From Candidatus Fraserbacteria bacterium (GTDB lineage Bacteria > Bipolaricaulota > Bipolaricaulia > RBG-16-55-9 > JAJCYT01), in NCBI GenBank assembly GCA_029262795.1, contig JAJCYT010000018.1, positions 195,762-259,761 on the forward strand: 64,000 nt of DNA. Direction: 5' to 3'. Under the pieces are notes generated by a model. It did not search any database. It worked only from the letters and a program-made list of their open reading frames with translations, and was not told the origin of the DNA. How positions within the stretch are numbered: the first letter of the stretch is position 1; each line of letters starts with the position of its first letter. This document shows, one piece after another, positions 2,015 to 22,105 of this stretch. The position numbers were made by a program, and so were the translations under genes.

Positions 2015-2029
2015 AGGAGGGGAAGGCTT

Positions 2030-2635: not shown

Positions 2636-2646
2636 AGGAGGCAGCG

Positions 2647-5344: not shown

Positions 5345-6493
5345 TTGCATAGCCCCCCCGTGGGGGCCGCCATGGTTTTCAATCGTGGCTCGCAGACGAA
5401 AGGAGCCAATACCGTGAGTACAAAAACTCATTTACTGAAACGACTGGTGCCGCTGATGCTCATACTTGTGTTTGCCTCCAGTGCGTTTTCTAATCAAGTC
5501 GAAATCGGCGTTCGAGTGGATCAGCAAGCGCCCGATTTCACCCTGCCCCAAGTGGACGGGGACCCTGTAACCCTCTCTGATGTTGTGGCTCAAAACGACG
5601 TCACTCTGATTTACTTCTTCCTGGCGGCCAGCTGACCTACCTGTCCTTCGGCATGGTTGCCGGAAATTCAAAAAGAACTCGACGGACGCTACGCAGGCCT
5701 AAATGTAGAAACCTTGGCCATCTCCACAGGTGATCCTGAATGGTATTTGAGCGCGTTTAAAAAAGAACTCAATGTCACCATGCCCTGGTTGAGGATGGAC
5801 ACGCGACTGCCAAACCCCTATTACCAGGAACAATACGATCTGTGGGATCTCAATGACACGCACCCCACTCTGGCGGTATTGGATGCCAACGGCGTGATCC
5901 GCTACCGGGCCACGGGCGATGGGGGCGTGGGCGAAAACAACATCAACTACCGCGTCGCCTTCAACATGATTGGCGAATTAATTGACGAAACCCAGACCCA
6001 GGACAATCAGTCTGCAGTGGGGGGCACGCCGGATAGCGTTGCAACCATCGGGTTGCTCGCTCCGGACTTCACGCTCAACGATATGAACGGCAACGCCGTG
6101 ACCCTTTCAGATTATCTGGGTACAGTTGTTGTCATCGATTTCTGGGATTGGGGCTGTGCCGTCTGCGGCGACCCCAACAATGTCAACCTGAAAAGCATCT
6201 TCCGCGAATACTCCCGTGAACAGGTGACCGTGCTCTCGGTCAACCTTTACCCTGAACCGGAAATGGAGGAAATGGAGGATTATATCGGGACACAACGGAT
6301 TCTTTATCCCGTGATGCTCAAAGGATACGATGCGGTTGGCAGCTCTTACAACATTACTCAGTTCCCCATGCTGATGATAATTGACAAGGATGGCATCATC
6401 CGCTACCGAGAAGTGACCGAGTCCCTTGTCTTCAATGAGGATGCTCAAACAATGCTGGACACCTTGGTTGGCGAGTTGGGTGGCTCCATGTAA
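5345..6493 (+). CDS. two-domain periplasmic thioredoxin-like (TlpA/AhpC-TSA fold) selenoprotein; in-frame TGA at 5633..5635 read as Sec (U-P-T-C) in domain 1, WDWGCAVCG in domain 2
   Basis: ORF track splits it into 5345..5635 and 5657..6493 in the same frame. Read-through gives ...TLIYFFLAAS-U-PTCPSAWLPEIQKELDGRY.... A near-identical paralogue at 18537..19652 has TGA at the aligned position. Signal peptide LLKRLVPLMLILVFASSAFS; true start probably ATG 5372 or GTG 5414. Confidence 0.6.
5646..5665 (+). other. candidate bacterial SECIS hairpin 14 nt 3' of UGA
   Basis: CGGCA-uggu-UGCCG stem-loop (5649..5662) with GGU in the loop, extendable by flanking UUC/GAA. Confidence 0.4.
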
Positions 6494-6532
6494 AGTCGCC
6501 CGCTCTCGCAGCTTGGCTGGAAGGGAGGCGCA

Positions 6533-6844
6533 ATGACCCAAGCACAAGCTCCAACCCGTACGGGAAGCCTGTCGCACAACCGGCGTGGCAAAAGCGATAT
6601 CCAATTACGACTTCGCACGATAGGCGGGCATCTTAATGGCATCGAGAAGATGATCGATCAGGATGCGTATTGTGTGGACATCCTGCGTCAGATCACGGCG
6701 GTGCAATCGGCCTTGTCTCAGGTTGCCTTGATTATGATGTCCAGCCACATGAATCACTGTGTCAAATCTGCCATTCAACGAGGCGAAGGCGATGACGAAA
6801 TTGAAGAACTGGTCGATCTTTTGAAATGCATGAAACATCTTTGA
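6533..6844 (+). CDS. CsoR/RcnR/FrmR-family metal-sensing transcriptional repressor
   Basis: LRTIGGHLNGIEKMIDQDAYCVDILRQITAVQSALSQVALIMMSSHMNHC matches the DUF156 helical-bundle pattern with Cys/His metal ligands. Confidence 0.75.
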   Translation: MTQAQAPTRTGSLSHNRRGKSDIQLRLRTIGGHLNGIEKMIDQDAYCVDILRQITAVQSALSQVALIMMSSHMNHCVKSAIQRGEGDDEIEELVDLLKCMKHL

Positions 6845-6866
6845 ATTGGATTGGCGGGTTTAAAAT

Positions 6867-6907
6867 AAGCATTCAGAAGCCCAAGTTGGCTTTGCTTCTG
6901 AATGCTT
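6867..6907. terminator. perfect 14-bp-arm hairpin between convergent csoR-like and cupredoxin genes (candidate bidirectional terminator)
   Basis: AAGCATTCAGAAGC-ccaagttggcttt-GCTTCTGAATGCTT; no strong U-run on either side. Confidence 0.45.
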
Positions 6908-7048
6908 ATGATGATCGGTAAAGATTGGTTGCCCTGCTGCTTAAATATCTTCTGATTGCAAAAATTAAAGGGCCAGATGATGGACGTATTGAGTGGCAGC
7001 ATTGGGCTGGGGCCGAGGAACCCTCGGCCCCAGCGATGTGATGAAATA

Positions 7049-7531
7049 TTAAACAACGATGAGTGGAACCTTCATACCAGCTTCGTAATGGCCGGTCACA
7101 AAGCAACCGATTTCCCATTCACCCTTCTTGTCTTCAGGAATCTGGATGAAGACTTCTGCACCTGATTCACCTTGGTGGGTTTCCACACCAAAGAAACCGT
7201 CCAACAACCACTCTTTGTAGTTGTGGTTTTCCAGGTCAGGGTCTCTACCGAACAGTGCATTATGGGCGACATCATCGTCCAGGTTAAAGAAATAGAGAGC
7301 GTATTTCTTGCCTGCTTCAAGCGTGATAGGAGCGTTGTTTTCGCCGCCAGGAATGCGGAAAAACATGGACCCCATTTCGATGAAAATTTCCTCATCCAAC
7401 CAAAGTTCGTGTGGTTCATCGGCTTGAGCTCGAACGTTTCTGGATTTCACCATTGTAGCGGCCAGTCCACCCAGAGCTGCTGCACCTGCGGTTTTGAGCG
7501 CTTTGCGGCGCGTCATTTTCTTTTCAGACAT
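7049..7531 (-). CDS. Tat-exported cupredoxin (blue copper) domain protein
   Basis: Twin-arginine signal MTRRKALKTAGAAALGGLAA; C-terminal type-1 Cu motif GCFVTGHYEAGM (C-x4-H-x4-M). Confidence 0.6.
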   Translation of the reverse strand: MSEKKMTRRKALKTAGAAALGGLAATMVKSRNVRAQADEPHELWLDEEIFIEMGSMFFRIPGGENNAPITLEAGKKYALYFFNLDDDVAHNALFGRDPDLENHNYKEWLLDGFFGVETHQGESGAEVFIQIPEDKKGEWEIGCFVTGHYEAGMKVPLIVV

Positions 7532-7690
7532 CGGATGTCCTCCTTATTCACGTTTAACGTGTGTTACTTTATTGTGGCCGTTACCATGCTTAAAACACCA
7601 TAAAACGTCGATCAAAGTGCAATGAAAACAGCGTTAAAAAGCGGTTAAGATCGAGGTGGACCGACGACTGCACTTCGACCAGAACAATCC

Positions 7691-8362
7691 TCATGCCGCC
7701 AACCTATAGCCAAAGCCTTTGACTGTTAGGATCAGGCTGGGGCATTGCAAATTGGGTTCGATCTTATTGCGCAGCAGGTGAATATATTGCTTAACGTCAT
7801 TGGCGGTGGCTGCACTGTCCGGTGGCCAGAGGTGGTGGATAATCTCTTTGTCTGATAGAACTCGGCCAGGGTCTGCTGCCAACAATTTGAGCAGCTCAAA
7901 TTCCTTCGGTGCCAGGTGTATTTGATCGCCATTCCAGTCCACCGTTTTTGTTCGGTCATCGATGTGTAGATTGCCCACGCGCACCTCTTCGGGTGGCGGC
8001 GGGGTTTGCAGTCGGCGCAGCACGGCGGTCATACGGGCCTCTAACTCCCTGGGCTCGAATGGCTTGGTCAAGTAATCGTCTCCGCCCAGGGACAAGCCTT
8101 TGATTGCATCGTCCGTGCTATCGCACGCGGTGAGGAAGATCACCGGCACCTGGCTCTGAGCGCGGATGGCTTCCAATACGCTCCAACCATCCAGGCGCGG
8201 CAACATCACGTCGAGCAACACAATGTCGGGCGTGGCTTGCTTGAATCTTGTTAGTGCATCCACACCGTTGGTGGCTGTCACCACCTCGTGCCCTATCGCT
8301 TCAAAATAGGTCTGCAATAACTCCAATGCATCTGATTCATCTTCAATGACGAGCAGTTTCAT
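7691..8362 (-). CDS. OmpR/PhoB-family response regulator
   Basis: Receiver domain (KLLVIEDESD...LLDVMLP) plus winged-helix C-terminus (LTVKGFGYRL). Confidence 0.85.
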   Translation of the reverse strand: MKLLVIEDESDALELLQTYFEAIGHEVVTATNGVDALTRFKQATPDIVLLDVMLPRLDGWSVLEAIRAQSQVPVIFLTACDSTDDAIKGLSLGGDDYLTKPFEPRELEARMTAVLRRLQTPPPPEEVRVGNLHIDDRTKTVDWNGDQIHLAPKEFELLKLLAADPGRVLSDKEIIHHLWPPDSAATANDVKQYIHLLRNKIEPNLQCPSLILTVKGFGYRLAA

Positions 8363-9941
8363 GCAATCCTCCTAACGACGTTGGCAATGCCTGATGTGCC
8401 AAGGGCAAGGCGAACCAGAAGTGGCTTCCCTCACCAAGTGCGCTGTCAAAGGCCAGCGTTCCGCCCATCAGGTCAACGTAGCGATTGACCACAGTTAGCC
8501 CCAATCCCATGCCTTGACGATTACGACCCGTTCGTTCTGCGCGGGTGAACGGCTCAAACAGCCTGTTTTGATCCTGCAGCGCAACCCCGATGCCAGTGTC
8601 GGACACCGAGAAATAGATGGAATGATTCCGGCGTTCAGCAAAAACCCGTACTTGACCACAGTCGGTGTATTTGATTGCGTTGTCAATTAGATTCAATAAC
8701 ACCTGTCTCAACTTGGTCTTATCGGTTTTCACTGGCAGGCTGGGTGCGACGTCGACCACCAGCTTGAGCCCTTTATTTAATAGCAATGGCCGTTGGCTTT
8801 CGAGCACTTCGTCCACGACCTCGGCCGCATTGAAATACACGCAGTGCAGGGGTTCGCTGCTGCCTTCCAGCCTGGAAAACTCGATTAAATTCTCGATCAG
8901 CGCCAGCAAGTGTTTGCCCGCCCGCAGGATGGCATCTGTGTATTGATGACCCGCTTTACTGAGTGTGACATTGACCTCATCCCGCAGCAGACTGGCGAAC
9001 CCCAGCACGGAGTGTAGCGGGGTTCGCAATTCATGACTGATTGTGGTTAAGAAATCGGATTTGGCGTGGTTGGCTTTCTTTAACTCTACATTCGTACGCC
9101 TCAATATATCTCGCTGATAGACGATCGAGTGGGCCATTGTGTTGAACTCATTGGCCAGCATCTCAATTTCGTCTCCGCTGTGAATATTGGTGCGAACAGA
9201 CACCCTGCCGGATCCAAATGCTCGCATCGTGTCGCTTAAGTGCTCGATTGGTCCCAAGATCATGCGGAACAAAATCCAACTGCACAGGATGCCCAGCGCC
9301 ATCAACCCCAAGCTCAATCCGATGAGCAACAGCGATTCCTGTTGCAACTCCTGTTTCAGTGGTTGCAACGAAAATCCCACACGAACGTAACTGTCGCCGC
9401 CATTGATCAGGCGCTCGTACGCTTGCGGCGTGATGAAGCGGCCGTATTTCGATAGGGAGTTGCTGGCTTGCTCAAAAGGATAAATGATGTCGAGGTGGTT
9501 GGCATCTGCTTGACTGGGCTTAAACTCGGTGATCAGGATCTGTGTGGACGGTGGTTGCGTGGCCAGGTTGATGTCAAAACGCTGCTTTTGGGAAACCATG
9601 TTGCCATACAACACTATCTGTACATAACCCAGTTCCTCTGTCCACAAGTGTTCGGCCAACGTGTCCAGGTCGTGACCAACCTCAAAGATCAGTCCCTCCA
9701 CTGCTTCCTCAGCGGCGTGCCTAGCATACTTCAGCGCTTGCTGCTCGTATTGAGCCTTGAGTTGGTTATTTAAGCGCTGTGTGGTTAAGACCCCAAAAGC
9801 AACGGCCACAATCACACTGAACCCCAAGAACGCGAGCATAAATTTGTAGCGTAAGCTCAAGCGCATGGGGTCCCCTTCTCCAATCAACGGATCGCGGCCT
9901 GAAATCTGACCGCGACCACTGGTCGTTGCGGCCTTAACCAT
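8343..9941 (-). CDS. sensor histidine kinase
   Basis: HisKA H-box SHELRTPLHSVLGF, HATPase N/G boxes (LIDNAIKYT, GMGLGLTVV), two TM segments; likely start at internal MRLSLRYKF. Confidence 0.85.
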   Translation of the reverse strand: MVKAATTSGRGQISGRDPLIGEGDPMRLSLRYKFMLAFLGFSVIVAVAFGVLTTQRLNNQLKAQYEQQALKYARHAAEEAVEGLIFEVGHDLDTLAEHLWTEELGYVQIVLYGNMVSQKQRFDINLATQPPSTQILITEFKPSQADANHLDIIYPFEQASNSLSKYGRFITPQAYERLINGGDSYVRVGFSLQPLKQELQQESLLLIGLSLGLMALGILCSWILFRMILGPIEHLSDTMRAFGSGRVSVRTNIHSGDEIEMLANEFNTMAHSIVYQRDILRRTNVELKKANHAKSDFLTTISHELRTPLHSVLGFASLLRDEVNVTLSKAGHQYTDAILRAGKHLLALIENLIEFSRLEGSSEPLHCVYFNAAEVVDEVLESQRPLLLNKGLKLVVDVAPSLPVKTDKTKLRQVLLNLIDNAIKYTDCGQVRVFAERRNHSIYFSVSDTGIGVALQDQNRLFEPFTRAERTGRNRQGMGLGLTVVNRYVDLMGGTLAFDSALGEGSHFWFALPLAHQALPTSLGGLHETARH

Positions 9942-10902
9942 CTTGATTGATCAATTGCTCCAACGTTTCAAAAAACGCCGTGGTCAGGGGGACGTTCTGC
10001 CGATACTGGATCACACCTTCTGGGTCAATAATGAGTGCACCCGTTGAGGTGAACCCGTAGTAGACGGCTGTTTTTAAGCCATCCATCAATAAGGTGAAAT
10101 CGACTTCCCGTTCCTGCTTGAATGCCTTGAGTGTTTCGGGATCAGGTGCCAAATCCATGGTCACCCCCAGCACGGCCACATCGTCTCCATAGGCCTCCAA
10201 TGCCTGCTGCAAAGGAGAGAGTACATCGCCACAGTTGGCGTCATGAGAACCAAAGAAGCCCAATACAATTGTTTTTCCTGCGTAGTCCGACAAGCTCACC
10301 GGCTCGAGGTCCAGGTTTTCCAGCGTGAAAGCCAGAGCCCTTTTTCCCACCTGATTGCCCACCTCCAACTCGCCGACCAATGTTTCGACCATGTCAGCAG
10401 ACTCGTCATCGAAGACTTTGTTCGTCTCCTTGAGGCGGATGATGCCGTCTTTGTCGATGAGGAACAGGATGGGGGTTGCAAACACGCGATAGTCAAAGGC
10501 AGTCTCAAGTGCGTTGACCAGAATCGGAAAACCAAGTGCCTTTTCTTCACGATAGGCTTTGAGCTGTTCCAGGTCAGGCTGCGGATCCTGGTTCAGTGAG
10601 AGCACTTGAATTTGTTCACGGCTATAAACGTCGTGCACGCGAGATTGGAGCGCCGGCATTTCGACCTCTCGACACTCAATACAACCCCATCCCCAGAACG
10701 TCAGGGCGACCACCTTGCCCCTGAAATCAGACAGCGACACCTCATTTCCATCCAGGTCGAACAAGCTGAAATCGGGCGCCATCTCGCCCACAACACCTTG
10801 GCCAAAAGCGGTGGATGGGCCCAGCATCAAGCTCAACACCCCCACCACAAGCGCCAACCTCCAGGCGGATCGAACAGCAGACCACATGTTACATCCCCTC
10901 AC
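9934..10902 (-). CDS. two-domain secreted TlpA-like thiol:disulfide oxidoreductase
   Basis: Signal peptide; domain 1 FWGWGCIECR CxxC motif; domain 2 thioredoxin-like with single Cys (FFGSHDANCGDV). Confidence 0.7.
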   Translation of the reverse strand: MRGCNMWSAVRSAWRLALVVGVLSLMLGPSTAFGQGVVGEMAPDFSLFDLDGNEVSLSDFRGKVVALTFWGWGCIECREVEMPALQSRVHDVYSREQIQVLSLNQDPQPDLEQLKAYREEKALGFPILVNALETAFDYRVFATPILFLIDKDGIIRLKETNKVFDDESADMVETLVGELEVGNQVGKRALAFTLENLDLEPVSLSDYAGKTIVLGFFGSHDANCGDVLSPLQQALEAYGDDVAVLGVTMDLAPDPETLKAFKQEREVDFTLLMDGLKTAVYYGFTSTGALIIDPEGVIQYRQNVPLTTAFFETLEQLINQDG

Positions 10903-11461
10903 TTTCAGGTAACTCGGCTACGAGTTCGTCGATGAAGGTCTTGACCTCTTCATCAAACAACCTGTTTCCTTCTTTAAAGCGGATCACGCCTTCGTGATCG
11001 ACGATGATCAAAATCGGGGTGGCAAACACCAGGTAGTCCACCGCAGTCTTCAACCCGTCAACAAGCATGGGGTACGTGATCTGTTTGTCCGCTATGTATT
11101 CGCGGATGTTGCCCAGATTTGGGTCGACGTCCTGATTTACCGCCAACACAAGCACTTGTTCGCGTGAAAAAACGTCCCACACTTCGTGTTGTAAGGCTGG
11201 CATCTCTTCTTCCTTACATGAGATGCACGTCCATCCCCAGAACGTCATGACCACAACTTTGCCGGCGTGGTCGGAGAGGGTGAAATCAACCGTCTCCGTG
11301 TCGACATCCTCTAGGGGGTTGAGGTTCATCAAGGTAAAATCGGGCGCGAGGTCGCCCACATTGGGACCGACCACAGGTTCATCCTGTGCGTTCAAAGCCA
11401 CGCCAAAACACATGCCCAAACTCAACACAATTACCCAAACTGCTAATTTTTTTTTGTACAT
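10889..11461 (-). CDS. secreted TlpA-like thiol:disulfide oxidoreductase
   Basis: Signal peptide LAVWVIVLSLGMCFGVALNA; FWGWTCISCK CxxC motif; paralogue of the adjacent gene. Confidence 0.7.
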   Translation of the reverse strand: MYKKKLAVWVIVLSLGMCFGVALNAQDEPVVGPNVGDLAPDFTLMNLNPLEDVDTETVDFTLSDHAGKVVVMTFWGWTCISCKEEEMPALQHEVWDVFSREQVLVLAVNQDVDPNLGNIREYIADKQITYPMLVDGLKTAVDYLVFATPILIIVDHEGVIRFKEGNRLFDEEVKTFIDELVAELPESEGM

Positions 11462-11692
11462 TTATTTTTCCCTTCATGAATCAGTGTGACTTAGGCGAAA
11501 GTTGTTTCTGCCTAATCAAACGGTAGTCCGAACCTGGGATGTGAACCATGACCCAACTCAACAGGTTTTATGAGCGAGATCAGAAAACCAGTCTCAAAGA
11601 TGATCCAGATCAGGTCTTGCATTGACTTGGCTCATACATTCGCATCAACCCTGTAGATAGAGTTGGACCATCATCGAATTTGGAGGCGCGAC

Positions 11693-12111: not shown

Positions 12112-13107
12112 CTACTTCCAGAGCTCGGCCAGTGCCGCGTTGAAGTAAGGGAAAGCCACGTTTATTGGCGTGAGATCGGAACCGTAAAACATCAGATCTG
12201 TGGGTGCTCCCAGCAGTTCCACACCCTGACTTAGGTGGTCACTCAATGCACTCGATGCTTGTAGCAAGAGCGCATAATGGTCCCAGGCGACGATACCGTG
12301 AAGCAGGCCTTGCTCAAACAGCGCCTCCCAGTTTTCAGGAACGCCCAATGCCCCCAGCCGGATGTCACTGCCAAGCTCCTCATGAAGGTAGCTGACGATA
12401 TCGGACGCGCCCGTCACCAAGGAGTGGTCGGTCACAATAATGGCGGCTAAGTCTGGGTGATCCTTGTAGGCTTGAGACGTTTCGGTGCTGCCACTTTCCT
12501 GAACCACCGGATAGGCACCGCGGAAGTGGGGGCTGGTTTTGAGCCCTTCAAGCAGATCGGCCTGCAAAGGGTCGATAAAGTAGCCAACCACGGCAAATGG
12601 CCGCGGCCCAACATCCTCCATGGCCTGTGCCCAGGCTACGCCCAATTGGAAGGCATCTACCCCAAACAGAGGCAGGTCCAGACCTTCGATCCGGCGCACG
12701 GTTAAGGCCAAAGGCGTCTCATTCACCTCCACCAGTTCGCGCACGATGGGGGTTAAGGGGTCGGCCTCTTCCACCGGCGCTGCTGGCGTGAGCAAGATGG
12801 CTTCGAAGGCCAGGTCTCTCAATTCTTCCAGAGCTTCCACTTGTTGTGCAGACACCGACAGCCGCGCCAGCATTTCGCTAAGCGCGTCCCGCGTGCAAAA
12901 GGCTGCGGCCGGAGTTTCGTACAACCCCACCTCCATGTTCAGAGTTGTACTCAAAGTGCTTTGGACCGCTTCAAAATCTTGGGCCATCGCGTCTACGGAG
13001 TAGGTGACGATCCCCATGGCAATCACACTTTGGCCACCTGCCAGAGGTGCCAAACAGAGCAGCAGTAACAGGGCAACGACACAGCGTCTCATCGTTTCCT
13101 CCTTCAT
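12112..13107 (-). CDS. secreted periplasmic-binding-protein type 1 (LacI/sugar-binding fold)-like protein
   Basis: Signal peptide; paralogue of 13172..14149 and 16583..17668; PBP1-like pattern (IAMGIVTYSVD..., LLHGIVAWDHYALLLQAS). Confidence 0.5.
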   Translation of the reverse strand: MKEETMRRCVVALLLLLCLAPLAGGQSVIAMGIVTYSVDAMAQDFEAVQSTLSTTLNMEVGLYETPAAAFCTRDALSEMLARLSVSAQQVEALEELRDLAFEAILLTPAAPVEEADPLTPIVRELVEVNETPLALTVRRIEGLDLPLFGVDAFQLGVAWAQAMEDVGPRPFAVVGYFIDPLQADLLEGLKTSPHFRGAYPVVQESGSTETSQAYKDHPDLAAIIVTDHSLVTGASDIVSYLHEELGSDIRLGALGVPENWEALFEQGLLHGIVAWDHYALLLQASSALSDHLSQGVELLGAPTDLMFYGSDLTPINVAFPYFNAALAELWK

Positions 13108-13171
13108 AAGTGAAGGCAGCCCTGAGGAAAATCCCCAGGGCTGCCTTTGTTAGACCTTTGTCCCTTTTTCG

Positions 13172-14149
13172 TTACCAGAAACGTCCCACCCGGTTAGGTG
13201 TGTCCTGCGAATACGGATAGGAAGTGTGGTTAAACGAAGTTGACCTGCTGTAATACAGGACGTCCGGATAAAAATTGTCTGGCGTAACGCCATCCCGGAT
13301 CATCACTTTGGCCATCACCGACGCCTGCATCAGCGTGAGGTAATTGTCCCAAGTGAACACCCCGTGCAACAGTTTTTGATCAAACAGATCTTTCCAAGTG
13401 TCAGGTGCAAACACCGATCCCAGCTTAATCAGCCGGTCTGTACCTGCCGTGACAGCCTGAATGGCAGCTGCAGCGCCAGCAGCGTATCTCGAATGGGAAA
13501 CCATCACATACTCAATCGGTTCGGTTTCGTCGGCGATGGCTTGTGCGGTTTCTGCGCGGCCATCGCTCAAGGCTTCATAGAAACCTCCGAAGGAGTCTAA
13601 TTCCATGAGCGGTGAGATGAAGGCGTTTTGGGTTGTATCGGACAAATTACCGACCACCACAAAGCGTCCACCATCCTGTTGTTCGGCCATGACTTTACCC
13701 AGTTCAGCCATATCAACGCCGGCAAAGGGCAGGTTCAGTTCGGGGATGTTGCGACCGTGCAACACTACGGGAACCTGTTTTGCTGCATTGCTAATGGCAT
13801 TGCTCACCAAGCTGAAATCATCCACTGGAGTGATGACCAGTCCTTGCACACCTGCGGCAAGCAGGGAGTCAATCGCAGCGACCTGATCTGCGGCCGTGCT
13901 GGCTTCGCGGATGTCTACCAGATAATGCTGAGGTTCGACATCGGGCAGGTCACGCGAGCTGGCGTTGCCTTCTGGCACTGGCAATACTTGCAAATCACCA
14001 TTGATTGGGTTGGTGTAGAATTGAATCCCCCACACTTGACCGTCGATCTTGTAGGTCACCACACCAATGATAATGTCGGGCTGGCTTTGGGCGATCACCA
14101 AAGGGGCAACCAGAGCCGCCAGCAACATAAAGATGAAAAAGCGTTTCAT
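13172..14149 (-). CDS. secreted periplasmic-binding-protein type 1-like protein, 13 nt downstream of deiodinase-like selenoprotein gene
   Basis: IIIGVVTYKID...; AAIDSLLAAGVQGLVITPVDDFSLVSNAISNAAKQVPVV; RFVVVGNLSD; LLHGVFTWDNYLTLMQASV = PBP1 hallmarks. Confidence 0.55.
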   Translation of the reverse strand: MKRFFIFMLLAALVAPLVIAQSQPDIIIGVVTYKIDGQVWGIQFYTNPINGDLQVLPVPEGNASSRDLPDVEPQHYLVDIREASTAADQVAAIDSLLAAGVQGLVITPVDDFSLVSNAISNAAKQVPVVLHGRNIPELNLPFAGVDMAELGKVMAEQQDGGRFVVVGNLSDTTQNAFISPLMELDSFGGFYEALSDGRAETAQAIADETEPIEYVMVSHSRYAAGAAAAIQAVTAGTDRLIKLGSVFAPDTWKDLFDQKLLHGVFTWDNYLTLMQASVMAKVMIRDGVTPDNFYPDVLYYSRSTSFNHTSYPYSQDTPNRVGRFW

Positions 14150-14161
14150 GAGCTACCTCCC

Positions 14162-14953
14162 TTAAAAGCCTGGTTCCACACCGAAGATGTTGCTCAACAC
14201 TTCGTCGTGCTGTTCGGGGCGTTCCCAGTTCTTGAAGTGGATGATCCGGCCCTTGAGGTCGATGACCATGCCAAATTGTGGCCCCATGCCCATTGAACTT
14301 GACACAACGGTGGTCGTGGAGCTTGTCCGCTCGAGCAAGTTGATTTTGTCTTCCTCAATAAGGAGGATGTGGTTTTCAGGACGAACGCCGTTTTCTACGT
14401 AGGAGAAGGTTTTCTCCATCAACAACGCACGTTCACGTCGGGCAGCATAAGTTTCTACGTCTAAAACTTCTGACTGCGTGAATTCAGGATGGCGTTCGCG
14501 GCCGTATAGATTAACGATCACGAATGGGAATTCGATGAATTTTTCTGCAATCTTATTGTTCGGAACCCAGTTCCGTAAATAAGGTGGTCAGTACCAGCTG
14601 CCGTTGATCAGCAGTACAAATTTTTCACCGCGGAACTGGGACAGCGTAACGGGCACACCATCTCTGGTCAGCTGTGTGAAATCAGGCACGATCATGCCTG
14701 GCTGAACAACGTCAGGGCTACGGAAACCGTATCTTGGATCGAGTTCACCGGCTGCAACCAAACCTGGTGCGGTGTCGGTGAAGAAATTTGGATCGGCCAG
14801 ACCTGCCTCTGTGTAGTACTCTTCGGCGAGAGCCTGCCAGGCGTCCAACTCTCCTTCTTCATAATTTTGTGACAACACTGTGCTTTGGCCTAAAATCATA
14901 AAGGCCAGTGCAACGAGGGCTGCCAAGGTGAGAACTTTACGCATGTTGATCAT
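14162..14953 (-). CDS. periplasmic iodothyronine-deiodinase-like selenoprotein (Prx-like fold); in-frame TGA at 14588..14590 read as Sec
   Basis: ORF track splits at TGA (14588..14953 and 14162..14521, same frame). Read-through gives ...FVLLINGSWY-U-PPYLRNWVPNNKIAEKFIEFPFVIVNLYGRERHPEF.... Matches eukaryotic DIO active site FGSCT-U-PPF and downstream FLIIYIEEAHPSDGW pattern. Signal peptide present. Paralogue at 17683..18411 has TGA at same position. Confidence 0.65.
14561..14575 (-). other. candidate bacterial SECIS hairpin ~12 nt 3' of UGA
   Basis: mRNA CGGAAC-ugg-GUUCCG immediately downstream of UGA-CCA-CCU-UAU-UUA. Confidence 0.4.
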
Positions 14954-16168: not shown

Positions 16169-16582
16169 GTCAGTGTAAAATTGTCCACTTCTTATTTAAT
16201 AATTGAAGTATCTTCTCAAGTTGGCAAAATCAAATGACCCATATCAGTCGCTCAATTGATGACCATCATATTTACACGATAAATGCCAATGGCATCTGCC
16301 AGAACCGGATTGTGCCAAGAGAAACGGTATAAGCACCCAACCACCCTCTGTTTATAAGCTCGGGATAAAACCATTCTTATTTTGCTATTTTATGATTCAC
16401 CCGGATTTGAGACACACAAGGTAAAGCGCCTGCAAAAAGCAAGCGCTTTACTTCCGAGGAGATACAAAAAGGCAGTGTCGCAAAAACGATTTCTAGAAAT
16501 GCTTAGATTCTTGTGACACTGCCAACAAACCGAACCAGCGGGTCGCCCCCTGGTTTTATGGCTATCTTTTTCCAGGCTTGGT

Positions 16583-17668
16583 TTAACCAAACCACCAATA
16601 CCAGATCATGCCGAACTGACGTTCGCTCTCATAAGGGAAACGCACGTAAGCGGGCAATCCGCCACCAATGGCACCTGTTCCCAGCCACATGATGGACACA
16701 TAATTGTCGTTCAACGGCGTGCCATCGAGCAAATGCACCTTGAGGGCAACAAGACCATCCAACAGCATTGGATAGTAGTCGGGTTGTACGTTGCCTTTGA
16801 TACGTTTTTGCTGGATCAGGCTGGTAAAGTTTTCCGGTGCGCCAAACACCCCCACCGAGATCTTGCGTTCGGAATCGATCACGGCTTCAACGATGTTTGC
16901 GGTCAACTGATGATCCATCACCGCAATGCCCACCAAGGCTTCGTTTGCTGCAATCAGAGCCGCAGTTTCTGAAGCATCCGTGGTGACCACGACTTCCAGC
17001 AAGTGATCGCCAACGGCTTCCTTAAAGCCTTCGATCATGCCCATTTGCAAAGGATCATCCAAGCTGGTGGCAAACAAGGCCACTTTGTCTTCGTCAGCTC
17101 GGTTTCCGAATGCTCCGGCACCATTGAGTGGTTCTTGAGGAGCAGATAACGCCATCCAGCCACGGCCCCAAGCGTTGCCAAATGCAAATGGTTCAACCCC
17201 AACAAATGCGGCATTGTTAATGCCAGGGATGTCCCGATAAGCAAACGCCATGGGAATGCCGGCGCGGATGGTGCGTTCCACTTCGTCGCGCAGAGCATTC
17301 ACATTGGGAACCGGCGTCAACAAGATACCATCGACACCCAGCTCTCGAAGTTCTTGCAACGCGGCAATTTGGGCTTCTGCCGTATCGGCGTTTCTAACGA
17401 CCAACTCGACCAGCGGTTTATTTTGCACGGCTGGGGTTTCCAGCACCCCGCCGCCAGTTTCGCCATAGGCACCCTGAATCGGCAACACGTTGATGTCTCC
17501 CAACAGCTTGCCGGGGTCAGCCAGCCTGGCTGTGGACATGGCTAGAAAATCCACCTGATAGGTGATCACTCCCAACACCATCGTCCCGTTTTCCTGGGCC
17601 ACATTACTAACCGTGCTGGCGCTCACCAAAACAGCTATTGCCAGCATGAGTATAAAGATACGTTTCAT
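16583..17668 (-). CDS. secreted periplasmic-binding-protein type 1-like protein, 12 nt downstream of second deiodinase-like selenoprotein gene
   Basis: MVLGVITYQVD; AAEAQIAALQELRELGVDGILLTPVPNVNALRDEVERTIRAGIPMAFAYRD; ISVGVFGAPE. Confidence 0.55.
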   Translation of the reverse strand: MKRIFILMLAIAVLVSASTVSNVAQENGTMVLGVITYQVDFLAMSTARLADPGKLLGDINVLPIQGAYGETGGGVLETPAVQNKPLVELVVRNADTAEAQIAALQELRELGVDGILLTPVPNVNALRDEVERTIRAGIPMAFAYRDIPGINNAAFVGVEPFAFGNAWGRGWMALSAPQEPLNGAGAFGNRADEDKVALFATSLDDPLQMGMIEGFKEAVGDHLLEVVVTTDASETAALIAANEALVGIAVMDHQLTANIVEAVIDSERKISVGVFGAPENFTSLIQQKRIKGNVQPDYYPMLLDGLVALKVHLLDGTPLNDNYVSIMWLGTGAIGGGLPAYVRFPYESERQFGMIWYWWFG

Positions 17669-17682
17669 GGATGATCACCTCC

Positions 17683-18411
17683 CTATAATCCGGGTTCCAG
17701 GCCGAAAATCTGGCTGAGAACTTCGTCCAGTTTTTCCGGTCGTTCCCAAATCTGCGATTCAACGATATGTCCGGTTGGATCGATGATCCAAGCGCCTTGT
17801 GGCCGCAGCCCATAGAGGGCGGTTGCCACGGTGGCCATGGTTGGCTGTTCGTGCCCGACATCGGGGATTTGCCCCACCGGGAAGCTTTCATCGATGAGCA
17901 GATAACGGTTGGCTGGGAATGCCTGTGATGTGAGGTTCAGCGTCAGCATCATCAGGCGCGCCCGTTCAAGGCGTTCTGCATAGGTTTCGATGAGCCATTC
18001 TTCATCGGTTACAAATTCTGGATGACGTTCACGACCGTAGATCGACAAGATCACAACTGGGAAGTCGGCAAATTTCTGACCTAATTTATCCATAGGAAGC
18101 ACGTTCCTGAGGAATGGTGGTCAGTACCAGCTCCCAGTTTCTATTACAACAAACGAATTGTCCAGGTATTGGCTCAGGCTGAATTCAATCCCGTTGATAT
18201 CCAACAGGGTGAAATCCGGCCCCAACATCCCTGGCATAATCGCTGAAAAGTCATTGAATTGATTACCCAACAGCGCATTTTCATCAACGCCTTCAACATA
18301 AAAGGCTTGCGCATTGGCAATCCAGGTGTCCATATCGCCCTGAGCTGAAGTAATGCTGCTGAACAGCGCCAGTGCCAGTGCAAAAATGGACATCATTCTG
18401 AAGACTTTCAT
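17683..18411 (-). CDS. periplasmic iodothyronine-deiodinase-like selenoprotein; in-frame TGA at 18121..18123 read as Sec
   Basis: Split ORFs 18121..18411 and 17683..18102 in same frame. Read-through gives ...FVVIETGSWY-U-PPFLRNVLPMDKLGQKFADFPVVILSIYGRERHPEF.... Signal peptide MMSIFALALALFSSITSA. Hairpin AGGAAgcacgUUCCU (18094..18108) after UGA. Confidence 0.65.
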
Positions 18412-18536
18412 TGAGAGACACCACCTTTCACATAATGGTTGAAATTAAAATTTAGATTAAAACTGAACTTTACAAAGATCATTCTCCAACGATCACCTCC
18501 TGTTTTTGCTAGTCGGCTCATTCTGTAAAACTTCTT

Positions 18537-19652
18537 TCAGTTCACATGGTTGACCAAGGGCGATCCCAAGTGTTCATTCAGAATTTGGATCGCCGTGTTG
18601 TCAAAATCTTCACCGCGGTAAAGGATCACACCATTGATATCCAGCAATAGAAACACAAAGTCACCCGAAGCCTGATAGGCCCAGGCCACATCCCCCAACT
18701 CATCTTTTACAACGGCATAGGTAATCCCGGCACTTCTAATAAAATCCTTGAGCACCTCGATTGGCGAATACTGGTCGATGCCCAGTACGGTCAACTTTTC
18801 CGGGCCATAATCATCCAACAAATCCTGGGCAAACAAACCTGGCACCAGCGAGCCACATTCCACGCATCCCGTCCCCCAAAACGACAGCAGGATGAGTTTG
18901 CCTCGATTGTAAAAATCAGACAAGGTCAGGGGATTGCCTTCCACATCGTTTAAGGTAAAATCGATGGCTTGTAATCCTGCCTGATTGCCTATCTCAGGCA
19001 GGGCGGCCATGTTGGCCTCTTCCAGCAGTTGCCCGACCAGATCAAAACCACTTCTATAATCCAGGTCTTCTTCGGTGGGACCACCATATCCTGTGTCCCG
19101 AAATCGTATGATTCCATTGGCATCAAGCACCAAGAGGGTGGGATGCCCTTCTGTGGTATCCAGGTTGTATTGCGCATAGATTTCAGCGAAATATCTTCCC
19201 ACACCAATGTCCATGGAAAGCCAGGGAAAAGTGACCCCCAGTTCTCTTTTGAAGGCATGTAAGTACCACTCAGGGTCGCCGGTGGAAATTGCAAGCCATT
19301 GCACGTTTTGTCCGTTGTATCTTCCATCGATTTCTTTTTGCATCTCCGGCAGCCATGCCGATGGGCAGGATGGTCAGGTGGCAGCAAAGAAGAAGTACAA
19401 CACAGTCACATCATACTGCTCGACTTGCTCCTGCAGTTGAATGGGGTCTCCGCCGCCCAACTGAGGCAGGGTGAAATCGGGCGCTTGCTGACCCACGTCA
19501 TACCCGATTTCGACTGAGACATTTGAAGCTTCTGCATAAGTGATGATTGGATCAGTCGTGGTTGTGGCCGTCAGCCCAATCAGAACAACCCACAAGAAGG
19601 CCTTTGTCCATTTAAGTTTTGTTGTGTACTTAAACATGATCGTTCCTCCCAA
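18537..19652 (-). CDS. two-domain periplasmic thioredoxin-like selenoprotein (U-P-S-C in domain 1, WGTGCVECG in domain 2); in-frame TGA at 19374..19376
   Basis: Split ORFs 19374..19652 and 18537..19343 in same frame. Read-through gives ...VLYFFFAAT-U-PSCPSAWLPEMQKEIDGRY.... Paralogue of 5345..6493. Hairpin CGGCA-uggc-UGCCG (19347..19360 region) follows UGA. Confidence 0.6.
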
Positions 19653-19681
19653 AATTTTTGAATGACCTCATCCCTGGGTCT

Positions 19682-20467
19682 TCAAAAATCAATCACGACA
19701 TTTTGCCAATATTGGTCCTGCAACCAGAGTGGCAGTTGCATGGGGTTGTCTGCATGGCAAGCGAAACAGTCCACACCTGTTATAAAGTCGTCTTTGACAA
19801 AACGGTTTGAAATTTCGATTGCCTCATGGGTGGCCGGAACGGAGGTCTGATGGCAGCCCGGACAACCAAACAGATCGCGCCAAGTGGGGTCCATCAGCGC
19901 ACGCGGTGTGAACCTGGAATGGCAATTGGCACAGGTGGTCTTTTCGACATAACTGGAAATCGTGACGCTGTCATCGTTTTGTTCAATTTGAAATTCATTA
20001 TGGCAAAAGGTGCATTCCGTGCCAAAATCCATAATCTTCTGCTTCTGATGCACCTGATGGTGGTTCTTTTCTTCAGTGATTTCGATGGCGCCATCTTCGG
20101 TAGGCATTTTTCGCATCACGGTTTCCTGGCTATAGATGTCGCTGTGACACGTCAGACAGGTTTGTCCCAATTTCGCAACATCTTCAGGGACTTCACTCAC
20201 CGTGTTGAGGTTAAGGTGAAATTGGGCCACCTGATCAAATAGTGTTGCCACTGCCGGATGAGGGCCAGGGGTGCTTGAGCTGGTTGAAATTACCGAGCCC
20301 GTTATCAACACGTCTTCCAGGCTGTGCCCGTCTGAAGGAAAGTTCAGCGGCGGCGCTGCCTGTGCAATTTGTATCAGAAACAAACTCATCAAGATAAATG
20401 CAATCCCTCGTAAACGTTTCATTTTTCTGTTCATTGTGGTTTTTTTTGTTTTCATGATGACCTTCAA
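19682..20467 (-). CDS. pentaheme c-type cytochrome (secreted/periplasmic)
   Basis: Five CxxCH motifs: CLTCH, CTFCH, CANCH, CPGCH, CFACH; signal peptide GIAFILMSLFLIQIAQA. Confidence 0.8.
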   Translation of the reverse strand: MKVIMKTKKTTMNRKMKRLRGIAFILMSLFLIQIAQAAPPLNFPSDGHSLEDVLITGSVISTSSSTPGPHPAVATLFDQVAQFHLNLNTVSEVPEDVAKLGQTCLTCHSDIYSQETVMRKMPTEDGAIEITEEKNHHQVHQKQKIMDFGTECTFCHNEFQIEQNDDSVTISSYVEKTTCANCHSRFTPRALMDPTWRDLFGCPGCHQTSVPATHEAIEISNRFVKDDFITGVDCFACHADNPMQLPLWLQDQYWQNVVIDF

Positions 20468-22093: not shown

Positions 22094-22105
22094 CAGTTCA
22101 TTCCT

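What the first reader, a model, noticed from the sequence alone, without database searches (positions are those of the whole stretch)
5345..20467. Selenoprotein-dense extracytoplasmic redox island: four Sec genes, TlpA-like paralogues, pentaheme cytochrome c and two two-component systems in ~15 kb
All four Sec-containing proteins, all TlpA-like proteins, the PBP1-like proteins, the pentaheme cytochrome and the cupredoxin carry export signals. The locus is bracketed by two histidine kinase/OmpR pairs. A coherent hypothesis is a regulated periplasmic electron pathway: membrane carriers to cytochrome/TlpA-like proteins to selenoenzymes, acting on a PBP-bound small molecule. Automated annotation would miss the system entirely, reporting eight truncated hypothetical ORFs instead of four selenoproteins.
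Basis: inference. Interest (0 to 1): 0.85.

Follow-up and report, generated by a model that had tools for sequence, protein, structure and literature searches.

The report
Conserved exported selenoprotein redox gene module
Four genes that ordinary annotation splits at a UGA codon are real selenocysteine genes, and together with a five-haem cytochrome and dedicated binding proteins they form a rare, conserved and undescribed exported redox gene set whose substrate is unknown.

Summary
Four ORF pairs are each joined by one in-frame TGA at the redox-active position of a thioredoxin fold. Each TGA is followed by a hairpin that keeps pairing through compensatory changes in homologues. TGA ends 17 of 41 other genes here, so this is site-specific recoding.

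There are two families:
- Sec1 and Sec2 are two-domain TlpA/ResA-like proteins (UxxC plus CxxC).
- Sec3 and Sec4 have no cysteine and a single Sec (GSWY-U-PP[YF]). They are remote deiodinase relatives that keep the deiodinase Ser/Tyr/Glu/His relay.

Both families are very rare. Every close homologue found also carries TGA; none has Cys.

In other genomes the core recurs as five-haem cytochrome c, then Sec-TlpA, then one or more [deiodinase-like Sec gene + sugar-PBP-fold gene] pairs. An orthologous periplasmic NiFe hydrogenase lies next to it in three loci. The two-component systems, cupredoxin and Rieske/cyt b are not conserved neighbours. Sec1 pairs with a CsoR-type repressor instead.

My best reading is an exported cytochrome-to-selenol relay ending in a single-Sec reductase, with the binding protein supplying the substrate. 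The substrate (organohalide, peroxide or other) is not established, and Sec machinery could not be checked.

The parts
5372..6493 (+). Sec1: exported two-domain TlpA/ResA-like selenoprotein. The N-domain has AAS-U-PTC (TGA 5633-5635) and the C-domain has WGCAVC.
   Evidence: Read-through translation. Pfam AhpC-TSA 108.6 bits and Redoxin 97 bits. U aligns with the first Cys of CPAC in the two-domain Cys homologue P0029.
5647..5664 (+). SECIS-like hairpin of Sec1: 7-bp stem with a UGGU loop, starting 12 nt after the UGA.
   Evidence: 88.9% of cells are paired over 9 homologues, and 2 pairs show compensatory changes.
6533..6844 (+). CsoR/RcnR-family metal-sensing repressor, directly downstream of Sec1.
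   Evidence: Pfam Trns_repr_metal 93 bits. The same Sec1-type + CsoR pair occurs in L018. The C...H-x3-C fingerprint was read from the sequence.
7049..7531 (-). Tat-signal cupredoxin-like protein. Not a conserved neighbour.
   Evidence: Ceruloplasmin cupredoxin domains E = 2e-5, with CxxxxHxxxxM aligned. No homologue in the related loci.
7691..9941 (-). OmpR-type response regulator (7691-8362) and HAMP histidine kinase (8343-9941). Their reading frames overlap those of the two TlpA genes upstream.
   Evidence: coordinates. No counterpart in the related loci.
9934..11461 (-). Two Cys-type exported TlpA-like proteins: a two-domain protein at 9934-10902 (WGCIEC) and a single-domain protein at 10889-11461 (WTCISC).
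   Evidence: A homologue of the two-domain protein follows the cytochrome c in L002.
12112..14149 (-). Two exported sugar-PBP-fold proteins (PBP_a 12112-13107, PBP_b 13172-14149) downstream of Sec3.
   Evidence: Pfam Peripla_BP_4. AF2 model with pLDDT 78; best Foldseek hits are RbsB, XylF and GGBP. The same order occurs in L002 and L006, a dio-like gene followed by PBP_b in L007, and a dio-like gene followed by two PBP genes in L016.
14162..14953 (-). Sec3: exported, Cys-free, single-Sec deiodinase-related thioredoxin-fold protein with GSWY-U-PPY (TGA 14588-14590).
14561..14575 (-). SECIS-like hairpin of Sec3: CGGAAC-UGG-GUUCCG, starting 13 nt after the UGA.
   Evidence: 97.4% of cells are paired over 13 homologues. 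Two pairs show compensatory changes (CG/AU and GC/CG). Slid controls reach at most 56%.
16583..17668 (-). PBP_c: exported sugar-PBP-fold protein directly downstream of Sec4 (14-nt gap).
   Evidence: Pfam Peripla_BP_4 60 bits. An orthologue follows the Sec4 orthologue in L001.
17683..18411 (-). Sec4: second exported, Cys-free, single-Sec deiodinase-related protein with GSWY-U-PPF (TGA 18121-18123). Its SECIS-like hairpin is at 18094-18108.
18537..19637 (-). Sec2: exported two-domain TlpA/ResA-like selenoprotein with AAT-U-PSC (TGA 19374-19376) and WGTGCVEC. Its SECIS-like hairpin is at 19345-19362.
19682..20467 (-). Exported cytochrome c with five CxxCH motifs (c3/c7-like), first gene of the core module.
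   Evidence: Homologues lie immediately upstream of the TlpA2 gene in L001, L002, L003, L015 and L016, and between two TlpA2 genes in L017.
16421..16451 (-). 13-bp terminator-like hairpin after PBP_c. It is a possible end of a cyt c-Sec2-Sec4-PBP_c transcript.
   Evidence: This is a consensus scan only, and terminator-like sites were not more frequent than in shuffled sequence.
20678..22954 (-). Second histidine kinase (20678-22093) and OmpR-type regulator (22106-22954), upstream of the cytochrome gene and outside the stated coordinates.
   Evidence: Not conserved in the related loci.

Best explanation
The region contains four genuine selenocysteine genes from two exported thioredoxin-fold families. 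Its core is a conserved module: five-haem c3/c7-type cytochrome c, then a two-domain TlpA/ResA-like selenoprotein (UxxC + CxxC), then one or more pairs of [single-Sec deiodinase/peroxiredoxin-like protein + its own sugar-PBP-fold binding protein].

Proposed mechanism (inferred, not shown):
1. The selenolate of the deiodinase-like enzyme attacks an electrophilic group on a small solute. It is helped by the conserved Ser/Tyr/Glu/His relay it shares with animal deiodinases. This produces a Se-X intermediate.
2. The enzyme has no cysteine of its own, so an external dithiol or selenothiol must recycle it. The co-encoded TlpA-like proteins are the obvious candidates.
3. The reducing power enters through the multihaem cytochrome. 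In three related loci the likely source is a periplasmic NiFe hydrogenase. In this genome it may be the Rieske/cyt b complex encoded upstream.
4. The paired binding protein captures or presents the substrate.

Several co-diversified enzyme/binding-protein pairs occur per genome, which points to a class of related substrates. The identity of the substrate is open; organohalide and hydroperoxide are the two chemistries this fold is known for.

Sec1 with its CsoR-type repressor is a separate, probably copper-responsive, unit. The two-component systems are local additions.
For: Sec genes:
- There is one in-frame TGA at the redox position in each of the four genes.
- TGA is a normal stop for 17 of 41 other genes, and no other gene has an internal TGA.
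- TGA is conserved in all 14 deiodinase-like genes plus one divergent gene, and in all 9 Sec1/2-type genes, across the window and 13 related loci.
- Substitutions fall mostly on third codon positions on both sides of the TGA, in the same frame.
- The hairpins downstream of the TGA show compensatory changes.
- U aligns with Cys of CxxC in a Cys homologue and with the Sec position of Dio3.

Deiodinase relation:
- A family profile hits Dio3 (4TR3, E = 1.8e-6) and Dio2 (9H48, E = 1.2e-5).
- Pfam T4_deiodinase matches 9 of 13 members at E <= 1.
- P0009, a family member fused to a cytochrome c domain, passes the Pfam cut-off (33.5 bits against 27).
- S94, Y125, E128 and H130 (Sec4 numbering) are invariant. 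By motif position they match Dio2 Ser127, Tyr157, Glu160 and His162 of the proposed proton relay (PMC11592359). This correspondence is my reading of the motifs, not a computed Dio2 alignment.
- No member has any Cys besides U.

Module:
- The deiodinase-like gene is immediately followed by a PBP gene in all 11 cases where downstream DNA is available, in 8 related loci, as well as in both window copies.
- Cytochrome c and TlpA2 are adjacent in L001, L002, L003, L015, L016 and L017.
- P0009 fuses three CxxCH motifs to the deiodinase-like domain.
- Orthologous NiFe hydrogenases (62-64% identical) flank the module in L002, L006 and L017.

Rarity:
- Only 12 representatives among 1.84 billion match the deiodinase-like profile. 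Eleven are short fragments lacking the part before the UGA site (most begin within about 30 residues after it), and the only full-length protein has Ser at that position.
- The 15 closest Sec1/2-type clusters are all truncated after the TGA position.
- The PBP family has 10 clusters.
Against: - No Sec machinery (tRNA-Sec, selA, selB, selD) lies in the window, and the rest of the genome could not be read.
- No experiment exists. No substrate, no direction of electron flow and no protein contact is shown.
- Electron transfer from haem c to a selenenylsulfide or disulfide has no precedent that I know of.
- TlpA-type proteins normally draw electrons from CcdA/DsbD. None was found in cis, but one could be encoded elsewhere.
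- The one cytochrome fusion (P0009) has Ser rather than Sec at the active position.
- Sec3 and Sec4 score below the curated deiodinase cut-offs. They resemble ResA/TlpA about as well as they resemble deiodinases.
- No hydrogenase lies in this 64-kb window.
- The related loci may come from a fairly narrow lineage, so part of the synteny may simply be inherited.
Confidence: 0.55

Rival explanations
1. This is an envelope stress-defence set rather than a pathway for one solute. The single-Sec proteins would act as peroxidases in the manner of 1-Cys peroxiredoxin or GPx. The TlpA-like proteins would repair copper- or oxidant-induced disulfide and sulfenic damage, as the Scs or DsbC/G systems do. 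Metal and redox sensors (CsoR and the two kinase pairs) would switch it on.
For: - The AhpC-TSA/Redoxin and BCP models are the best or joint-best hits for all four Sec proteins.
- A Ser lies three residues before U, as in the peroxiredoxin TxxC motif.
- The Sec1-CsoR pair is conserved.
- A cupredoxin is nearby.
- The TlpA genes overlap HK1/RR1.
- Most known Trx-fold selenoproteins are assumed to be antioxidant (PMC13188914).
Against: - A peroxidase needs no dedicated binding protein. Yet a PBP gene follows the deiodinase-like gene in every locus where downstream DNA is available.
- Several co-diversified enzyme/PBP pairs per genome fit several substrates better than one oxidant.
- The recurring NiFe hydrogenase and multihaem cytochrome look like energy metabolism.
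- CsoR, the cupredoxin and the TCS do not travel with the cyt c/Sec2/Sec4/PBP core.
Confidence: 0.25
2. These are maturation factors. The TlpA/ResA-like proteins, including Sec1 and Sec2, would keep the CxxCH cysteines of the adjacent apocytochrome c reduced before haem attachment, or the ligands of a copper protein reduced before metal insertion. This is what ResA, CcmG and TlpA do. The clustering would then reflect assembly and not a catalytic pathway.
For: - The closest structures to this fold are ResA, CcmG and DsbE.
- The cytochrome c and TlpA2 genes are the tightest pair; they occur without the deiodinase-like gene on the DNA held for L015 and L017.
- The Cys two-domain TlpA passes the SCO1/SenC cut-off (34.6 bits against 22.8).
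Against: - This does not explain the Cys-free single-Sec proteins or their obligatory PBP partners.
- No ResB/ResC or CcdA lies next to the module in most loci.
- Obligatory Sec with no Cys form would be unusual for a housekeeping maturation thioredoxin.
- There are eight Trx-like domains for one five-haem cytochrome.
Confidence: 0.12
3. The genes are not selenoproteins. The TGAs would be real stops, pseudogene lesions or assembly errors, and the eight pieces would be separate or dead ORFs.
For: No Sec machinery was found in the window. Public gene callers report split ORFs.
Against: - The same codon is TGA in 24 genes from 14 independent assemblies (the window and 13 related loci).
- The 20 or so codons between the TGA and the next possible start are among the best conserved in the protein.
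- Substitutions fall on third codon positions on both sides.
- The hairpins co-vary.
- The TGA sits exactly at the catalytic Cys/Sec position.
Confidence: 0.03

Closest known systems
Iodothyronine deiodinases (Dio1-3; Pfam PF00837) and the bacterial 'deiodinase-like' selenoproteins first reported from the Sargasso Sea (PMC1088965)
   Same: - Thioredoxin/peroxiredoxin-like fold.
- Sec at the same position in a GS-x-x-U-PP-[FY] motif.
- A downstream Y-x-x-E-x-H-P motif that supplies the Tyr, Glu and His of the proposed proton relay.
- A bacterial SECIS directly after the UGA.
   Different: - Sec3 and Sec4 score 14 bits or less on PF00837 (cut-off 27) and 27.5 bits on NF038285 (cut-off 250).
- They have no resolving or distal cysteine at all.
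- They are exported soluble proteins with a signal peptide, not membrane-anchored cytosol-facing dimers.
- They are always encoded with a PBP-fold partner and a multihaem cytochrome.
- No Cys-containing form was found, whereas Cys forms of bacterial deiodinase-like proteins were reported (PMC1088965).
TlpA/ResA/CcmG-type extracytoplasmic thiol-disulfide oxidoreductases and the 'thiol-disulfide isomerase-like' (cd02966, UxxC) selenoproteins listed in PMC13188914
   Same: Sec1 and Sec2 pass the AhpC-TSA and Redoxin cut-offs. They carry a signal sequence. They have U-x-x-C where relatives have C-x-x-C.
   Different: - They have a tandem two-domain architecture (UxxC then CxxC) with a distinctive YFF[FL]AA[ST]-U-P[ST]CP motif.
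- All 15 closest database clusters are truncated at the Sec site.
- They are adjacent to a five-haem cytochrome c and not to ResBC or CcdA.
- No curated NCBIfam selenoprotein model reaches its cut-off.
Multi-selenoprotein operons (SAO, Tso, frhA-frhD-hdrA-glpC) reviewed in PMC13188914
   Same: Several selenoprotein genes are co-located with non-Sec partners, including substrate-binding proteins. This suggests pathway-level use of Sec.
   Different: - The families are entirely different, and no SAO or Tso NCBIfam model matches.
- Here the binding proteins are not themselves selenoproteins.
- No ABC permease or ATPase is present.
Periplasmic [NiFe]/[NiFeSe] hydrogenase feeding a multihaem cytochrome c3, as in Desulfovibrio (from my own knowledge)
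   Same: A Tat-exported hydrogenase without an obvious cytochrome b partner lies next to a small c3/c7-type multihaem cytochrome in L002, L006 and L017.
   Different: The acceptor side would be a selenol/thiol relay and not a transmembrane complex. No hydrogenase lies in this window.

Membership tests
Bacterial selenoprotein gene | Single in-frame UGA in an otherwise open, conserved reading frame, in a genome where UGA is normally a stop | tested here: met
   TGA ends 17 of 41 other genes, and the four genes hold the only internal TGAs.
Bacterial selenoprotein gene | SECIS stem-loop just downstream of the UGA, with a small apical loop containing G | tested here: met
   The hairpins start 12-13 nt after the UGA and have UGG, UGGN or CGUGC loops. 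97.4% and 88.9% of cells are paired, with compensatory changes. Rfam has no matching model.
Bacterial selenoprotein gene | UGA aligns with Cys or Sec of homologues at a functional site | tested here: met
   Sec1 U aligns with Cys of CPAC in P0029. The deiodinase-like U aligns with the Sec-to-Cys position of Dio3 in 4TR3. All close homologues carry TGA.
Bacterial selenoprotein gene | The genome encodes tRNA-Sec, SelA, SelB and SelD | not testable with these tools
   None lies in the 64-kb window. The rest of the 282-kb source contig and the genome could not be fetched.
Iodothyronine deiodinase family (PF00837 / NF038285) | Score at or above the curated family cut-off | tested here: not met
   Sec4 scores 14 bits and Sec3 has no hit at E <= 1, against a cut-off of 27. 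On NF038285 they score 27.5 bits against 250. The relative P0009 does pass PF00837 (33.5 bits).
Iodothyronine deiodinase family (PF00837 / NF038285) | Active-site GS-x-x-U-PP-F motif with the Ser/Tyr/Glu/His proton-relay residues | tested here: met
   G93, S94, Y125, E128, H130 and P131 are invariant. The aligned Dio3 sequence is shown and the residue roles come from PMC11592359. The Thr before Sec is Tyr or Phe in most members.
Iodothyronine deiodinase family (PF00837 / NF038285) | Cysteine(s) that resolve the oxidised selenium within the enzyme | tested here: not met
   No Cys is present in any of the 14 members.
Iodothyronine deiodinase family (PF00837 / NF038285) | Reductive dehalogenation activity | not testable with these tools
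   This needs enzymology.
TlpA/ResA-like thiol-disulfide oxidoreductase (Sec1, Sec2) | Redoxin/AhpC-TSA fold above the cut-off, a CxxC-type motif and an export signal | tested here: met
   106-109 bits on AhpC-TSA. UxxC aligns with CxxC. The N-terminal hydrophobic segment was judged by inspection.
TlpA/ResA-like thiol-disulfide oxidoreductase (Sec1, Sec2) | A CcdA/DsbD-type membrane reductant or ResBC partners encoded nearby | tested here: not met
   No such family appears among the window ORFs scanned or in the precomputed annotations of L015-L018. L015 has a Cytochrom_C_asm gene about 7 kb away.
Type I periplasmic solute-binding protein of an ABC transporter | Peripla_BP_4 domain and an RbsB-like two-lobe fold | tested here: met
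   46 and 60 bits for two of the three proteins, and 18.5 bits for the third. The AF2 model has pLDDT 78. Foldseek to RbsB, XylF and GGBP gives E about 1e-11 and TM about 0.6.
Type I periplasmic solute-binding protein of an ABC transporter | Cognate permease and ATPase genes | tested here: not met
   None was seen next to any of the PBP genes in the window or the related loci.
SAO / Tso selenoprotein operons | Match to the SaoB/C/L/P/T/X or TsoA/B/C/X/Y models | tested here: not met
   The NCBIfam scan of the Sec proteins, PBPs and cytochrome shows no such hit. The family list is from PMC13188914.

The most novel reading that the evidence does not exclude
The module is a selenium-dependent, corrinoid-independent, extracytoplasmic reductive dehalogenase system. 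Electrons from H2 (via a periplasmic NiFe hydrogenase) or from quinol would pass through a five-haem cytochrome c and a Sec/Cys TlpA-like relay to deiodinase-type single-Sec enzymes. Each enzyme would be paired with a binding protein that captures a different halogenated solute. This would be a second, unrelated biochemical route to organohalide reduction, and possibly respiration, in uncultured bacteria.
Probability: 0.12. Interest if true: 0.9.

Novelty: new variant of a known kind. Interest (0 to 1): 0.62.

Why it matters
- Annotation. Four functional genes, and their counterparts in every related assembly I examined, are filed in public data as eight or more short hypothetical fragments. 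The system is therefore invisible to ordinary annotation.
- Detection methods. Within the reach of an exhaustive HMM search, both families occur only with Sec and never with Cys. [quoted passage not shown] These families are a useful counter-example and a test case for such methods.
- Origin of deiodinase chemistry. A Cys-free, exported relative of deiodinases keeps the deiodinase proton-relay residues and is hard-wired to a binding protein, a multihaem cytochrome and (in three loci) a hydrogenase. This gives a concrete, testable handle on what deiodinase-type selenium chemistry does in bacteria, a question left open since these proteins were first seen in 2005.
- If the terminal reaction is dehalogenation, it would bear on halogen cycling in sediments and the subsurface.

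Tried and rejected
- Global TGA reassignment (genetic code 4 or 25). Rejected: TGA ends 17 of 41 genes, and there are only four internal TGAs.
- More selenoprotein genes in the window. None is credible.
- Cys-containing close homologues. None was found by the word-index searches or by the exhaustive profile search.
- Read-through (U-to-C) sequences for the representative search and structure prediction. The full-length relative P0009 was used for the model. It had only moderate confidence (pLDDT 59; 60-90 in the Trx domain), and its fold hits do not separate ResA/TlpA from deiodinases.
- Rfam. No SECIS or other RNA family was found apart from one tRNA.
- SAO or Tso membership. No model hits.
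- Promoter/terminator scan. Sites were not more frequent than in shuffled sequence; only one strong hairpin, at 16421-16451, is noted.
- Organism identity. The source is an NCBI contig of 282,193 bp that also occurs in Logan runs SRR15505517-19, but no name or accession could be retrieved. The only named relative is a MAG labelled 'uncultured Thermotogae bacterium', and I do not trust that label. A search of papers for the sample accessions found nothing.
- Literature. I found no description of this module. Haft & Tolstoy 2025 is not held in the library.
- The 249-aa protein (15419-16168). It has no family, no PDB relative and no homologue in the related loci.

Full report
**What is in the sequence**

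Between 5.3 and 20.5 kb, four ORF pairs lie in the same frame and are separated by a single stop. Translating across the gaps shows one stop in each, and the DNA shows that each is TGA.
- Sec1 (+ strand, 5372-6493; TGA 5633-5635) reads ...YFFLAAS-U-PTCPSAWLPE...
- Sec2 (- strand, 19637-18537; TGA 19376-19374) reads ...YFFFAAT-U-PSCPSAWLPE...
- Sec3 (- strand, 14953-14162; TGA 14590-14588) reads ...LINGSWY-U-PPYLRNW...
- Sec4 (- strand, 18411-17683; TGA 18123-18121) reads ...IETGSWY-U-PPFLRNV...

A scan of all six frames for genes interrupted by one TGA finds no other credible case in the 64 kb. TGA terminates 17 of 41 other genes, and none of them has an internal TGA. A reassigned genetic code is therefore excluded, and the recoding is site-specific.

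**Are they selenoprotein genes?**

Five lines of evidence agree.
1. Position. In Sec1 and Sec2 the codon aligns with the first Cys of the CxxC motif of a two-domain Cys homologue. In Sec3 and Sec4 it aligns with the selenocysteine position of mouse deiodinase 3.
2. Conservation of the codon. All 14 deiodinase-like genes plus one divergent paralogue, and all 9 Sec1/2-type genes, carry TGA at that position. These come from the window and 13 related loci recovered from a MAG, JGI and ENA metagenomes and Logan assemblies.
3. Coding constraint across the codon. The residues just after the TGA (PPYLRNWVPNN..., PTCPSAWLPEIQKEL...) lie upstream of any possible restart codon, yet they are among the best conserved in the proteins. 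Substitutions between orthologues fall mainly on third codon positions on both sides, in one frame.
4. A hairpin 12-13 nt after each UGA.
   - For the deiodinase-like genes the 6-bp stem is paired in 97.4% of cells over 13 sequences. Two pairs change on both sides (C-G to A-U, G-C to C-G). When the 3' partner is slid by one to three columns, pairing drops to 56% or less.
   - One of these changes links a synonymous Arg codon change to a Pro-to-Ala replacement. I read this as the RNA structure constraining the protein sequence (inference).
   - For the Sec1/2 type, 88.9% of cells are paired, with two compensatory pairs.
   - The apical loops contain G, as described for bacterial SECIS elements (PMC1088965).
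5. Rarity of alternatives. No Cys form exists among close relatives (see 'Rarity' below).

What is missing is the machinery. The window holds no tRNA-Sec, and no SelA, SelB or SelD was seen among the ORFs scanned. I put the probability that these are real selenoproteins at about 0.93.

**The two families**

Sec1 and Sec2:
- They are tandem TlpA/ResA-like (AhpC-TSA/Redoxin) domains. The first carries UxxC and the second WGCxxC.
- Generic 'thiol-disulfide isomerase-like UxxC' selenoproteins are already known (PMC13188914). No curated NCBIfam selenoprotein model reaches its cut-off for Sec1.

Sec3 and Sec4:
- Taken singly they give only sub-threshold Redoxin/AhpC hits, and only 27.5 bits against NCBI's 'deiodinase family protein' model, whose cut-off is 250.
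- A profile of 13 family members finds mouse Dio3 (E = 1.8e-6) and Dio2 (E = 1.2e-5) in the PDB, interleaved with ResA/TlpA-like thioredoxins.
- Pfam T4_deiodinase matches 9 of 13 members weakly.
- One relative, P0009, passes the Pfam cut-off (33.5 bits).
- The alignment to Dio3 runs through GS-x-x-U-PP-[FY] and on to Y-x-x-E-x-H-P. The Ser, Tyr, Glu and His in these motifs are invariant in the family. By motif position they correspond to Dio2 Ser127, Tyr157, Glu160 and His162, which are proposed to form the catalytic proton relay (PMC11592359).
- No member contains any cysteine. Sec is the only redox-active side chain, and the oxidised enzyme must be reduced by another protein or a small thiol.
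- An AlphaFold model of P0009 had only moderate confidence. Its Trx-like domain matches ResA/CcmG-type proteins and Dio2/Dio3 about equally well. The fold therefore does not decide between them.
- I file these proteins as a new Sec-only clade related to deiodinases. They are not members of the curated deiodinase families.

**Rarity**

- An exhaustive HMM search of 1.84 billion representative proteins with the post-UGA half of the deiodinase-like family found 12 hits. Eleven are short fragments that lack the part before the UGA site, and most begin within about 30 residues after it. The only full-length protein (P0009) has Ser at that position and an N-terminal domain with three CxxCH motifs.
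- The 15 closest clusters of the Sec1/2 type are all truncated in the same way.
- The PBP family has 10 clusters.
[quoted passage not shown] Within the reach of these searches, these two clades do not.

**Gene context and what is conserved**

In the window, the - strand reads:
- RR2-HK2, 210-nt gap, cyt c (five CxxCH), 29-nt gap, Sec2, 125-nt gap, Sec4, 14-nt gap, PBP_c, then a strong hairpin.
- A 249-aa orphan gene.
- Sec3, 12-nt gap, PBP_b, 64-nt gap, PBP_a.
- After a + strand glutaredoxin-like gene: TlpA190, TlpA2dom, HK1 and RR1 with overlapping frames, then the cupredoxin.

On the + strand lie Sec1 then CsoR, preceded by DOMON, Rieske and cytochrome b genes.

In related loci:
- The deiodinase-like gene is immediately followed by a PBP gene in all 11 cases with downstream DNA: L001, L002 (three times), L003, L004, L006, L007, L008 and L016.
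- The enzyme and PBP subtypes tend to go together. Sec3-like genes are mostly followed by PBP_b (and PBP_a), and Sec4-like or divergent genes by PBP_c-like proteins.
- The cytochrome and a Sec (or, in L002, Cys) two-domain TlpA precede these pairs in L001, L002, L003 and L016.
- The cytochrome and Sec-TlpA2 are the only module genes on the DNA held for L015 and L017.
- Orthologous Tat-exported NiFe hydrogenases (large subunits 62-64% identical) lie beside the module in L002, L006 and L017. In L002 the hydrogenase sits between two copies of the module.
- No kinase, response regulator, cupredoxin, Rieske/cyt b, glutaredoxin-like gene or 249-aa homologue appears in any related locus.
- Sec1-type plus CsoR recurs in L018.

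The 'island' is therefore composite. It has a conserved core, a second conserved pair (Sec1-CsoR) and local additions.

**The binding proteins**

- Two of the three pass Pfam Peripla_BP_4.
- A model of PBP_b (pLDDT 78) matches ribose-, xylose- and glucose-binding proteins, with E about 1e-11, TM about 0.6 and 11-20% identity.
- No ABC permease or ATPase gene accompanies any of them.

**How it most likely works**

Shown:
- Exported Trx-fold proteins with Sec at the catalytic site.
- A Cys-free terminal enzyme with a deiodinase-like relay.
- Obligate adjacency to a binding protein.
- Recurrent adjacency to a multihaem cytochrome and a two-domain Sec/Cys thioredoxin.
- One natural fusion of a cytochrome c domain to the deiodinase-like domain.

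Inferred:
1. The selenolate attacks an electrophilic atom of a solute held or delivered by the binding protein. That atom would be a halogen in deiodinase chemistry, or the peroxide oxygen in peroxiredoxin chemistry.
2. The resulting Se-X species is resolved by the UxxC/CxxC proteins.
3. These are re-reduced with electrons entering through the cytochrome, which is fed by the hydrogenase or by quinol through the Rieske/cyt b complex.

The haem-to-selenenylsulfide step has no precedent that I know of and is the weakest link. A CcdA/DsbD encoded elsewhere could replace it. I give this overall picture 0.55, and the specific organohalide reading about 0.12.

**Rivals**

- Envelope peroxide or copper stress defence (0.25). 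The Sec1-CsoR unit and the Prx-like scores favour it. The obligatory binding proteins, the multiple enzyme/PBP pairs and the hydrogenase count against it.
- Cytochrome or cuproprotein maturation thioredoxins (0.12). This fits the cyt c-TlpA2 pair but not the deiodinase-like/PBP pairs.
- Split or dead ORFs (0.03).

**Comparison and novelty**

Bacterial deiodinase-like and TlpA-like selenoproteins, and operons with several selenoproteins (SAO, Tso, frh/hdr), are known (PMC1088965, PMC13188914). The following were not found in the literature searched:
- the Sec-only, Cys-free exported deiodinase-related clade;
- its fixed pairing with a PBP-fold protein;
- the cyt c/Sec-TlpA/hydrogenase context.

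I class the finding as a new variant of a known kind, with interest 0.62. It is solid and unusual as a selenoprotein module, but its chemistry is not yet known.

Noticed in passing
window 26000-53300: This stretch has low G+C (0.34-0.45, against about 0.50 elsewhere). It encodes a 3533-aa ORF (27840-38441), an SNF2/PLD helicase, an Eco57I/MmeI-type methylase-restriction protein, an SMC-like ATPase, a GmrSD+Schlafen nuclease, a Rep_trans-like protein and a large serine recombinase. The recombinase ORF (51780-53243) overlaps the tRNA-Gln gene (53211-53284) on the opposite strand. It looks like an integrated mobile or defence island.
   Followed up: partly
window 471-3945: A DOMON-domain protein, a Rieske protein and a fused cytochrome b (b6/petB + petD-like) lie directly upstream of Sec1. 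They could be a quinol-oxidising entry point for periplasmic electron carriers in this genome, but they are not conserved next to the module elsewhere.
   Followed up: partly
L019 769-2052 (protein P0009): This is a natural fusion of a cytochrome c domain with three CxxCH motifs to a deiodinase-like domain that passes Pfam T4_deiodinase but has Ser where Sec or Cys is expected (GSSTSSLYLR). The contig is short and its neighbours are uninformative.
   Followed up: partly
L002 9201-12359; L006 6473-8714; L017 481-3750: Orthologous Tat-exported NiFe hydrogenase operons (small subunit, large subunit, HycI protease) lie next to the selenoprotein module in three different assemblies. No obvious cytochrome b subunit is present. 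A YwiC-family membrane protein is nearby in L015 and L017.
   Followed up: partly
L009 4250-5640: A DsbA-like (Thioredoxin_4) gene and a VKOR gene, which together form a disulfide-forming pair, sit just upstream of the deiodinase-like Sec gene in this locus only.
   Followed up: no
window 15419-16168 (- strand): A 249-aa protein with an export signal and seven cysteines lies between the two Sec/PBP units. It has no Pfam, NCBIfam or PDB relative and no homologue in any related locus.
   Followed up: partly
window 54399-63039: This stretch holds a gamma-glutamyltranspeptidase, a Thioredoxin_9 protein, an MMPL/RND-type transporter and two tandem MoeA (molybdopterin molybdenumtransferase) genes. 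None was examined for links to the redox module.
   Followed up: no
L007 470-900: The post-UGA reading frame of this deiodinase-like gene ends after 44 codons, although tblastn similarity continues to the normal end. This is probably a frameshift or an assembly error in that metagenome contig.
   Followed up: no
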